A DNA stretch of 64,000 nt from Escherichia coli. Lineage in GTDB: Bacteria; Pseudomonadota; Gammaproteobacteria; Enterobacterales; Enterobacteriaceae. Shown here one piece after another: positions 4,903-5,142 of this stretch. Both the position numbers and the translations under genes were made by a program. The stretch's first letter is position 1; the number at the start of each line of letters is the position of its first letter. A model generated the notes under the pieces. It made no database searches, was not told the DNA's origin, and saw only the letters and a program-made list of their open reading frames with translations. The stretch lies in the NCBI RefSeq assembly GCF_003018115.1, contig NZ_CP027457.1. One strand, written 5' to 3'.

Positions 4903-5142
4903 TTAATTACCGTCCGTTGTTTTTCTTAAAACAGCTTCTGTCACGAAATCGGCATAGTTAGCGGCAATATCAAGAATATTTAGCCCTGTATCTCTGTGCT
5001 CATCAGTGCAAAGAAAGAAAAAAGCCACCCGCATAATTTCAGATATTGACGAAAGCGCATCAGCCGCATCATCAGGAACGCCGGAAAATTCTTGTTTCAG
5101 GGAATAAAAACGATCATCACGCATAACCCCCCCCATTTTCAC
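4903..5142 (-). CDS. Hypothetical small protein (73-79 aa; probable start ATG 5124 or 5136)
   Basis: ORF track (GTG start at 5142); G8 tract lies in its 5' end / ribosome-binding region. Confidence 0.5.
   Translation of the reverse strand: MKMGGVMRDDRFYSLKQEFSGVPDDAADALSSISEIMRVAFFFLCTDEHRDTGLNILDIAANYADFVTEAVLRKTTDGN

What the first reader, a model, noticed from the sequence alone, without database searches (positions are those of the whole stretch)
5124..5137. G8 homopolymer at the junction of two overlapping small ORFs
An 8-nt G run on the coding strand encodes the GGG C-terminus of ORF 5117..5356 and overlaps the start/RBS region of the next ORF. Homopolymers of this length are rare in E. 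coli-type genomes and prone to slipped-strand mispairing. A +/-1 change would alter the upstream C-terminus and the SD-to-start spacing of the downstream gene.
Basis: partly seen in the sequence, partly recalled or inferred. Interest (0 to 1): 0.6.

Follow-up and report, generated by a model that had tools for sequence, protein, structure and literature searches.

The report
Variable poly-G joins or splits two genes
An eight-G run in an E. coli phage-satellite island serves as the ribosome-binding site of a small gene, and its length differs between strains (6 to 12 G), so two small genes are fused in some strains and separate in others; it changes slowly and looks like a mutational hotspot rather than a proven switch.

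Summary
The G8 run is real: C8 on the + strand at 5127-5134, on the coding (-) strand. It lies in the early operon of a PICI-type phage satellite integrated at tRNA-Pro. It encodes the Gly-Gly-Gly near the end of ORF1 (5117-5356). It sits 2 nt before the ATG of ORF2 (4903-5124), and the two ORFs overlap by ATGCGTGA.

Tract length varies widely among homologous elements, from G4 to G12, mostly G7, G8 and G9.

- G7 and G10 fuse the two ORFs into one 150-155 aa protein, the annotated form in about 228 complete E. coli genomes, including the sampled O157:H7.
- G8 and G11 give two coupled genes.
- G6, G9 and G12 extend ORF1 by 9 residues in the third frame.

ORF2 stays intact and under equal purifying selection in all three states. 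Distant relatives carry GGGGAGG or GGAGGG at this position, with separate genes. I therefore read the run as a Shine-Dalgarno element that became a homopolymer.

Changes are heritable and slow. All seven O55:H7 genomes have G8, and every sampled O157:H7 genome has G7. Fast phase variation is not supported, but reads were not available to test it. The function of the two proteins is unknown. Interest is modest.

The parts
5127..5134 (-). G8 homopolymer (C8 on the + strand). It encodes Gly-Gly-Gly of ORF1 and acts as a Shine-Dalgarno-like element 2 nt upstream of the ORF2 ATG.
   Evidence: Sequence. Predicted duplex with the 16S rRNA 3' end is -12.1 kcal/mol for G8, against -13.6 for the consensus UAAGGAGGU. 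Length is polymorphic in homologues.
5117..5356 (-). ORF1, 79 aa, ends ...CENGGGYA*. Helical-hairpin protein of unknown function (phrog_5146; N-terminal half of phrog_2512).
   Evidence: pN/pS is 0.55-0.60 in all tract states.
4903..5124 (-). ORF2, 73 aa, starts MRDDRF. Unknown function (phrog_24341; C-terminal half of phrog_2512).
   Evidence: It is intact in about 95% of loci whatever the tract length. pN/pS is 0.43-0.45 in all three frame classes, against 1.2-1.3 for wrong-frame controls. Stand-alone homologues start at the same Met.
5117..5124 (-). 8-nt stop/start overlap ATGCGTGA (ORF2 ATG, ORF1 TGA), the geometry of translational coupling.
   Evidence: Sequence. The same ATGnnTGA overlap occurs in the distant homologue L098 (ATGTATGA).
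2235..5748 (-). Tightly packed early operon that contains the tract: Icd-like (5551-5748), orf70 (5346-5558), ORF1, ORF2, orf77 (4668-4901), DUF4222 (4363-4662), RepA-family helicase (2957-4366), orf91 (2497-2772), PerC-family regulator (2235-2507).
   Evidence: ORF lists, annotation of relatives, junction sequences with G-rich ribosome-binding motifs inside the preceding gene.
7181..7387 (-). Helix-turn-helix regulator, AlpA-type by position.
   Evidence: The role of AlpA as activator of the E. coli PICI cycle comes from PMC6092414.
7884..9125 (-). Integrase of the island.
9344..9420 (-). tRNA-Pro (GGG), the integration site and right end of the island. The chromosome (yejM and onward) follows.

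Best explanation
The G run is the Shine-Dalgarno element of ORF2. It lies inside the last codons of ORF1, in the early operon of an E. coli phage-inducible chromosomal island (PICI).

In distant relatives this element is GGGGAGG or GGAGGG, and the two genes are separate and overlap at their stop and start. In the E. coli clade it has become a pure G homopolymer (inferred).

As a 7-9 nt G run it is a replication-slippage hotspot, changing roughly 10^2-10^3 times as often as an ordinary site. Because it lies in coding sequence, each +/-1 step moves the ORF1 reading frame relative to ORF2:
- G8 and G11 keep the ancestral coupled pair, which is the window's state.
- G7 and G10 fuse the two into one two-module protein.
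- G6, G9 and G12 give ORF1 a short out-of-frame tail.

ORF2 keeps its own ATG and its G-rich ribosome-binding site in every state. It is therefore made in all of them (inferred from intactness and equal purifying selection), and all three states persist in nature.

Changes are heritable and rare on the scale of a clone. This is a mutational hotspot producing a fusion/fission polymorphism, not a demonstrated high-frequency phase-variation switch.
For: **Length polymorphism**
- Type-A junctions (GAAAAT-Gn-TTATG) in IMG/VR and complete genomes: G4 x2, G7 x25, G8 x37 (plus 4 interrupted), G9 x15, G10 x4, G11 x2 (plus 1 interrupted), GGGGAGGGGGGG x3.
- A second ORF1 allele family (CAG-Gn-TAAACATG) also varies: G6 x31, G7 x3, G8 x3, G10 x1.

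**Coding consequence**
- G7 loci are annotated as one CDS of 150-154 aa and G8 loci as two CDSs.
- PHROGs holds separate families for the fused protein and for each half.
- Fused proteins of 154 and 155 aa are abundant.

**Ancestral state**
- Representatives at 38-50% identity are mostly stand-alone proteins of about 75 aa, with the ORF2 type starting exactly at the internal Met.
- Their junctions carry GGGGAGG or GGAGGG before the ATG; L098 also has the 8-nt ATGTATGA stop/start overlap.

**Ribosome-binding capacity**
- Predicted anti-SD duplex energy is -11.8 to -13.4 kcal/mol for G7-G9, against -13.6 for the consensus.
- The other genes of the operon have G-rich motifs in the same position.

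**ORF2 maintained in every state**
- ORF2 is intact in 23/25 G7, 34/37 G8 and 15/15 G9 loci.
- pN/pS is 0.43-0.45 in all three frame classes, against 1.2-1.3 for wrong-frame controls.

**Two autonomous modules**
- The AlphaFold model has two helical modules joined by a low-confidence linker at residues 76-96.

**Hotspot, but slow**
- The orthologous islands of O55:H7 CB9615 and O157:H7 PV15-279 are 99.89% identical over 14.1 kb. They differ by 14 substitutions and 2 indels, and both indels are in the two longest homopolymers (G8 to G7 here, T8 to T7 after int).
- With identical 45-nt flanks, 5,426 complete genomes give G6 x4, G7 about 228, G8 x17 and G9 x2.
- The states are lineage-structured: all seven O55:H7 have G8, every sampled O157:H7 has G7, and three O145 strains have G6.
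- In the IMG/VR-dominated set of 91 type-A loci (the five complete-genome loci and the window included), a flank tree needs at least 39 length changes (43 for shuffled labels). Pairs under 0.5% diverged share the length in 27 of 50 cases.
Against: - No expression data: the ribosome-binding role, translational coupling and independent initiation of ORF2 are all inferred.
- The G run ends only 2 nt from the ATG, so pairing must use the 5' part of the run to reach a workable spacing. The duplex calculation is crude.
- About 55 nt around the tract is invariant even at synonymous sites. That could mean a constraint I have not identified, or a mosaic recombination joint.
- Some of the variation in IMG/VR draft genomes may be homopolymer sequencing error, which would inflate the rate estimate.
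- Slow change at the level of consensus genomes does not exclude minority variants within cultures.
- The function of both proteins is unknown, so whether fused and split forms differ in phenotype is open.
Confidence: 0.68

Rival explanations
1. It is a true contingency locus. The tract is kept by selection because reversible slippage switches the island between a fused and a split (or tailed) form of an early protein pair. This would diversify satellite-helper interactions within a population.
For: - Length varies over G4-G12 and all three frames are common.
- The run is rarely interrupted (about 9 of 95 type-A loci) although synonymous diversity nearby is 0.4-0.5.
- A second, unrelated ORF1 allele family also has a variable G run at the same junction.
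- A tree of the flanks shows almost no phylogenetic signal for length.
Against: - States are stable within clones: about 228 genomes share G7 on one flank type including every sampled O157:H7, all 7 O55:H7 have G8, and two NCTC86 assemblies both have G8.
- Only one change occurred along the O55:H7 to O157:H7 branch.
- No state abolishes either ORF, and selection on ORF2 is the same in all states.
- Conservation of the run is explained equally well by its ribosome-binding role.
- G7-G9 runs are short for a contingency locus (my own knowledge: in Campylobacter, Neisseria and Haemophilus the tracts usually have 8 or more G and switch at 10^-3 to 10^-5).
Confidence: 0.14
2. It is a recoding site. 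RNA polymerase slippage on the G run, or a +1 ribosomal frameshift at GCG-UGA stimulated by the upstream SD-like run (as in prfB), yields both separate and fused proteins from one allele. Genomic length would then matter little.
For: - In the G8 state ORF2 is in the +1 frame relative to ORF1.
- The SD-like run ends 4 nt before the last sense codon, which is followed by UGA. This resembles prfB (AGGGGG-UAU-CUU-UGA; my own knowledge).
- All three genomic frames are tolerated.
Against: - No out-of-frame arrangement is conserved. Recoding sites keep one genomic frame, whereas here all three occur.
- There is no slippery codon: GCG cannot re-pair in the +1 frame (sequence).
- Distant homologues lack the geometry.
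- No RNA structure was found (z = +1.1 and -0.05).
- Transcriptional slippage in E. coli is documented mainly for A or T runs of 9 or more (my own knowledge).
Confidence: 0.08
3. It is a sequencing or assembly artefact. The apparent variation, or the window's own G8, reflects homopolymer miscalls.
For: - Long-read-only and 454/Ion Torrent assemblies miscall G/C homopolymers (my own knowledge).
- Two records both named E. coli 042 give G10 and G9. Their lengths are 5.24 Mb and 4.69 Mb, so they may not be the same strain.
Against: - States follow lineages rather than sequencing projects: O55:H7 7 of 7 G8, every sampled O157:H7 G7, three O145 strains G6.
- Lengths up to G11, a 12-nt GGGGAGGGGGGG form and other interrupted variants cannot be +/-1 miscalls.
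- The window's G8 with identical flanks occurs in an independent complete genome.
- G8 is also found in CFT073 and Nissle 1917, and by alignment span in ATCC 25922.
Confidence: 0.03

Closest known systems
Translationally coupled overlapping gene pairs with the downstream Shine-Dalgarno element inside the upstream ORF (ATGA or ATGnnTGA overlaps)
   Same: - 8-nt ATGCGTGA overlap.
- G-rich element complementary to the anti-SD, inside the last codons of ORF1.
- The same layout occurs at other junctions of the operon and in distant homologues.
   Different: The ribosome-binding element is a pure homopolymer. It is therefore itself a frameshift hotspot that repeatedly fuses and splits the pair.
Simple-sequence contingency loci (poly-G/C phase variation in Campylobacter, Neisseria, Haemophilus and Bordetella; see PMC1891110 for microevolution at Bordetella tracts)
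   Same: A G homopolymer in coding sequence whose length differs between strains and shifts the reading frame.
   Different: - No ON/OFF outcome: both ORFs stay coding and under selection in every state.
- States are stable within clones.
- The tract is short.
- The host is mismatch-repair-proficient E. coli, which is not known for such loci.
SD-stimulated programmed frameshifting (prfB +1, dnaX -1) and transcriptional slippage at homopolymers
   Same: An SD-like run just upstream of a stop codon, with the downstream ORF in the +1 frame.
   Different: - No slippery codon.
- The genomic frame is not conserved.
- No product evidence.
EcCICFT073 / EcCIEDL933-type phage-inducible chromosomal islands of E. 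coli (PMC6092414)
   Same: - The same junction, with G8 and two CDSs, lies in the CFT073 island between roxA and phoQ. That island carries the capsid (c1499) and head-decoration (c1500) genes described for EcCICFT073.
- The window's island has int, an AlpA-type HTH regulator, Icd-like, DUF4222, RepA/Pri, PerC and a capsid-protease fusion.
   Different: - The window's island sits at tRNA-Pro next to yejM, not between roxA and phoQ.
- It is a mosaic relative: 94% identity over only part of the element, as measured against the roxA-phoQ island of strain P15-385.
- The small ORFs at the tract have no described function.

Membership tests
Simple-sequence contingency (phase-variable) locus | Homopolymer or short repeat inside an ORF or promoter | tested here: met
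   G8 inside ORF1 and in the ORF2 ribosome-binding region.
Simple-sequence contingency (phase-variable) locus | Repeat number differs between strains or elements | tested here: met
   G4-G12 among more than 130 loci, and G6-G10 among complete genomes.
Simple-sequence contingency (phase-variable) locus | Length change switches the gene product ON or OFF | tested here: not met
   - Every frame leaves ORF1 and ORF2 open.
- ORF2 keeps its own ATG and ribosome-binding site.
- ORF2 is intact in about 95% of loci in each state, and pN/pS is equal across states.
Simple-sequence contingency (phase-variable) locus | High-frequency reversible switching within a clonal population | tested here: inconclusive
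   - No reads were available.
- By proxy the answer is negative: about 228 genomes share G7 on one flank type including every sampled O157:H7, O55:H7 is 7 of 7 G8, and there is one change on the O55 to O157 branch.
- Half of the near-identical draft-genome pairs differ.
Translationally coupled overlapping gene pair | Stop codon of the upstream ORF overlaps or abuts the start codon of the downstream ORF | tested here: met
   ATGCGTGA at 5117-5124.
Translationally coupled overlapping gene pair | Shine-Dalgarno complementarity upstream of the downstream start, inside the upstream ORF | tested here: met
   Predicted duplex of -12.1 kcal/mol for G8, against -13.6 for the consensus. The spacing is short (2 nt from the run's 3' end).
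Translationally coupled overlapping gene pair | Arrangement conserved in homologues | tested here: met
   L098 has GGAGGG...ATGTATGA and L097 has GGGGAGGCAAACATG. Stand-alone halves dominate among distant representatives.
Translationally coupled overlapping gene pair | Downstream translation depends on upstream translation | not testable with these tools
   This needs reporter fusions with ORF1 stop or start mutants.
Programmed recoding site (+1 frameshift or transcriptional slippage) | Out-of-frame arrangement conserved across homologues | tested here: not met
   All three frames are common.
Programmed recoding site (+1 frameshift or transcriptional slippage) | Slippery or hungry codon motif at the shift site | tested here: not met
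   The site is GCG UGA, and the P-site tRNA cannot re-pair in the +1 frame (sequence). The site geometry is not conserved in L097 or L098.
Programmed recoding site (+1 frameshift or transcriptional slippage) | Trans-frame product detected | not testable with these tools
   This needs a western blot, mass spectrometry or cDNA sequencing.
E. coli PICI (EcCICFT073 type) | int, AlpA-type regulator, pri/rep module, about 10-15 kb, specific att site, no full set of phage structural genes | tested here: met
   - Window genes and the annotation of a 98.4% identical relative.
- tRNA-Pro at the island's end.
- The left end of the island lies outside the window.
E. coli PICI (EcCICFT073 type) | Induction and transfer by a helper phage | not testable with these tools
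   Shown for EcCICFT073 in PMC6092414, not for this island.

The most novel reading that the evidence does not exclude
The poly-G run is a selected, reversible switch in a phage satellite. It would be the first simple-sequence contingency locus described in a PICI, and one of very few in E. coli. By toggling an early-operon protein pair between covalently fused and separate forms, or by RNA-level slippage making both, it would diversify how a clonal population of islands responds to or interferes with helper phages.
Probability: 0.12. Interest if true: 0.7.

Novelty: new member of a known kind. Interest (0 to 1): 0.35.

Why it matters
- It explains an annotation inconsistency that affects hundreds of E. 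coli genomes: one 'hypothetical protein' of about 154 aa in some, and two of about 75 aa in others, including O157:H7 versus its O55:H7 ancestor and the model island EcCICFT073.
- It shows how a ribosome-binding site inside a gene can turn into a frameshift hotspot that repeatedly fuses and splits neighbouring genes.
- It provides a natural allelic series (G6-G12) for testing what these conserved but uncharacterised early PICI genes do.
- If switching proved fast or adaptive, it would be a rare contingency locus in E. coli and in a phage satellite.

Tried and rejected
- **Function of ORF1, ORF2 and the fused protein.** Pfam gave nothing even at E of 10 or below. NCBIfam gave nothing. PADLOC gave only a chance-level hit at E = 0.03. 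PHROGs gave only families of unknown function. The AlphaFold model has mean pLDDT 67, and Foldseek against the PDB found nothing at E of 0.001 or below, only generic helical hairpins.
- **Paralogy.** No detectable similarity of ORF2 to ORF1 or to orf77.
- **RNA structure around the tract.** Not better than shuffled sequences (z = +1.1 and -0.05).
- **Scan of genome contigs.** The 17-mer ATGYGTGATGATCGTYT was too short for 298 Gb. No cross-species survey was therefore obtained.
- **Short megablast queries centred on the tract.** Planned but rejected, because BLAST's low-complexity filter masks G7 and G8. I used 96-99 nt queries with 45-nt flanks instead and read tract length from exact matches and alignment spans.
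- **Source of the window.** I first assumed the window was strain P15-385. It matches that strain at 100% only over 4600-5800, and the island as a whole is a mosaic whose closest relative is strain 95-3322.
- **The 'fused' distant representatives P0126 and P0170.** P0126 is fused through a different upstream frameshift. P0170 looks N-terminally aberrant and has out-of-frame TAATGA at the junction. Neither is good evidence for an ancestral fusion.
- **Literature.** Two full-text searches found no paper mentioning this tract, and a term search inside the EcCIMP1 paper found no 'frameshift' or 'homopolym'.

Full report
**1. The observation**

The + strand carries C8 at 5127-5134. The genes here are on the - strand, so the coding strand reads AAT GGG GGG GGT TAT GCG TGA. 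That is the end of ORF1 (5117-5356, 79 aa...ENGGGYA*).

The ATG of ORF2 (4903-5124, 73 aa, MRDDRF...) lies inside TT-ATG-CG-TGA. The two ORFs therefore overlap by 8 nt, and the run ends 2 nt before the start codon. PGAP annotates exactly these two CDSs in a strain that is 100% identical over 4600-5800.

Composition alone would give 0.23-1.4 G/C runs of 8 or more in 64 kb; 2 are observed. All three G/C runs of 6 or more lie in the 9.3-kb island, and none lie in the 54.6 kb of chromosome.

**2. Context**

The window's first 9.4 kb is the right part of an integrated island ending at tRNA-Pro (9344-9420), next to yejM. The closest complete-genome relative is strain 95-3322, at 98.4% identity.

The island's genes are:
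- an integrase (7884-9125) and an HTH regulator of AlpA type (7181-7387);
- small + strand YlcI/YnfO-type genes;
- a tightly packed - strand operon: Icd-like, orf70, ORF1, ORF2, orf77, DUF4222, RepA-family helicase, orf91 and a PerC-family regulator;
- further left, a ClpP-protease/major-capsid fusion gene.

This is the layout of E. coli phage-inducible chromosomal islands (PICIs). The same junction occurs in the CFT073 island between roxA and phoQ. That island carries the capsid and head-decoration genes described as c1499 and c1500 of EcCICFT073. In that family AlpA, induced by a helper phage, activates the island's cycle (PMC6092414).

**3. The tract is polymorphic, and its length decides the gene structure**

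The first five complete-genome loci already differed. G7 loci have one CDS of 150-154 aa, and G8 loci have two CDSs.

A pattern scan of IMG/VR with the tract left free, followed by a less biased scan anchored only on the ORF2 start, gave the following for the GAAAAT-Gn-TTATG junction (type A):

| Tract | Loci |
|---|---|
| G4 | 2 |
| G7 | 25 |
| G8 | 37 (plus GGGGGTGG x2, GGGGTGGG x2) |
| G9 | 15 |
| G10 | 4 |
| G11 | 2 (plus GGGGGGGGTGG x1) |
| GGGGAGGGGGGG | 3 |

A second ORF1 allele family with the junction CAG-Gn-TAAACATG (type B) also varies: G6 x31, G7 x3, G8 x3 and G10 x1.

The coding consequences are:
- Lengths of 3k+1 fuse ORF1 to ORF2 (...ENGG-V-MRDD...).
- Lengths of 3k+2 keep the ATGCGTGA overlap.
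- Lengths of 3k send ORF1 into the third frame, so the C-terminus reads ...ENGGGLCVMIVLIP*: a 9-residue tail in place of YA, and 86 aa against 79 aa for the common allele.

PHROGs has separate families for the fused protein (phrog_2512, 154 aa) and for each half. The large protein database holds many fused proteins of 150-156 aa.

**4. Which state is original, and what the run is for**

The family is small, with 53 representatives at 50% clustering. The distant members are mostly stand-alone proteins of about 75 aa matching one half, and the ORF2 type starts exactly at the internal Met.

In two such loci the junction reads GGGGAGGCAAAC-ATG and GGAGGGCTGGTC-ATGTATGA. These are ordinary Shine-Dalgarno elements before the ATG, with no homopolymer; the second locus (L098) also has the same 8-nt stop/start overlap. 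The other junctions of the window's operon likewise have G-rich motifs inside the preceding gene.

The G run pairs well with the 16S rRNA 3' end: -11.8 to -13.4 kcal/mol for G7-G9, against -13.6 for the consensus. I infer that the run is the ORF2 ribosome-binding site that became a homopolymer. On that reading the window's G8 state reproduces the ancestral two-gene arrangement.

**5. ORF2 does not depend on the frame**

ORF2 is full length (73 or 77 aa, two C-terminal alleles) in 23/25 G7, 34/37 G8 and 15/15 G9 loci. pN/pS is 0.43-0.45 for ORF2 and 0.55-0.60 for ORF1 in each of the three frame classes. The wrong-frame controls give 1.2-1.3.

The AlphaFold model of the fused form has mean pLDDT 67. 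It shows two helical modules joined by a low-confidence linker at residues 76-96. The two modules therefore appear to tolerate being joined or separate.

**6. How fast it changes**

The orthologous islands of O55:H7 CB9615 and O157:H7 PV15-279 are 99.89% identical over 14.1 kb. They differ by 14 substitutions and two 1-nt indels. Both indels are in the two longest homopolymers: G8 to G7 at this tract, and T8 to T7 after int.

With identical 45-nt flanks, the 5,426 complete genomes give the following:

| Tract | Genomes | Examples |
|---|---|---|
| G6 | 4 | three O145 strains |
| G7 | about 228 | every sampled O157:H7, several O145 |
| G8 | 17 | all seven O55:H7 |
| G9 | 2 | |
| G10 | at least 1 | |

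With CFT073-type flanks, G8 is exact in about 68 genomes, including Nissle 1917, and O111 strains carry G9 or G10; CFT073 and ATCC 25922 are also G8 by alignment span.

States therefore follow lineages, which argues against both sequencing error and rapid switching. Among the 91 type-A loci analysed (86 IMG/VR plus the five complete-genome loci and the window), a flank tree needs at least 39 length changes, close to the 43 obtained with shuffled labels. Pairs less than 0.5% diverged share the length in 27 of 50 cases.

Together this puts the tract at roughly 10^2-10^3 times the per-site substitution rate. That is what is expected of a 7-9 nt G run in mismatch-repair-proficient E. coli (my own knowledge). 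It is far below classical contingency loci.

**7. Rivals**

- A selected phase-variation switch is not excluded. The run is rarely interrupted despite high nearby synonymous diversity, and about 55 nt around it is invariant. Its ribosome-binding role and mosaic recombination could explain both observations.
- A recoding site of the prfB type (+1 frameshift) or transcriptional slippage is unlikely. All three genomic frames occur, there is no slippery codon, and no RNA structure stands out.
- An artefact is unlikely, for the lineage reasons given in section 6.

**8. What remains unknown**

The function of ORF1 and ORF2 is unknown. I could not determine whether fused and split forms behave differently. 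I also could not determine whether minority tract lengths arise within a culture or during island replication; reads were not available.

**9. Verdict**

It missed the main consequence, which is gene fusion and fission, and it overstates the likely switching rate.

This is a new, well-documented example of a known kind of event: homopolymer slippage at a gene junction. It is of modest interest. It is useful for annotation and as a natural allelic series for studying PICI early genes.

Noticed in passing
window 2183-2190 (- strand): A second G8 run, intergenic. It lies about 45 nt downstream of the PerC-like ORF (2235-2507), just after a terminator-like hairpin (GCCGGAGCAATCCGGC followed by T6). 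Most relatives (13 of 15) carry an interrupted G-rich run (commonly GGCGGGGTGGG) of the same total length; one (L007) shares the G8. This run therefore arose by point changes, and no length variation was seen.
   Followed up: partly
window 5736-7226 (- strand): A 496-codon open frame directly upstream of the Icd-like gene, on the operon strand and antisense to the small + strand YlcI/YnfO-type genes (5932-6120, 6625-6798). Relatives also have open frames of 250-270 codons there. PGAP does not annotate it, although CFT073 has an N-terminally extended 158-aa 'Icd-like' CDS that overlaps the antisense gene. A frame this long without stops is unexpected by chance.
   Followed up: partly
window 5346-5558 (- strand): PGAP annotates orf70 (WP_000609225.1, 70 aa) from an ATT start codon 6 nt after a GGAGG motif, overlapping the Icd-like stop by 8 nt. 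This is a rare start codon, if it is real.
   Followed up: no
L269 position 5074 vs L270 (O55:H7 vs O157:H7 island, just after the integrase gene): The only other indel between the two 14.1-kb orthologous islands is T8 to T7, in the other long homopolymer. The two longest runs account for all the indels.
   Followed up: yes
window about 5085-5150 (junction flanks), from 91 type-A loci: An island of about 55 nt with nucleotide diversity near zero surrounds the tract, including synonymous sites. Diversity 30-70 nt away is 0.3-0.6. Only 17 nt of this was forced by the search pattern. It may be a recombination joint between mosaic alleles or a constraint on the translation-initiation region. This is unexplained.
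   Followed up: partly
L096 / window 5357-5565: The window carries an extra small gene (orf70) between Icd-like and ORF1 that its closest relative, strain 95-3322, lacks. The island is 100% identical to strain P15-385 only over 4600-5800. This indicates fine-scale mosaicism of the early operon.
   Followed up: partly
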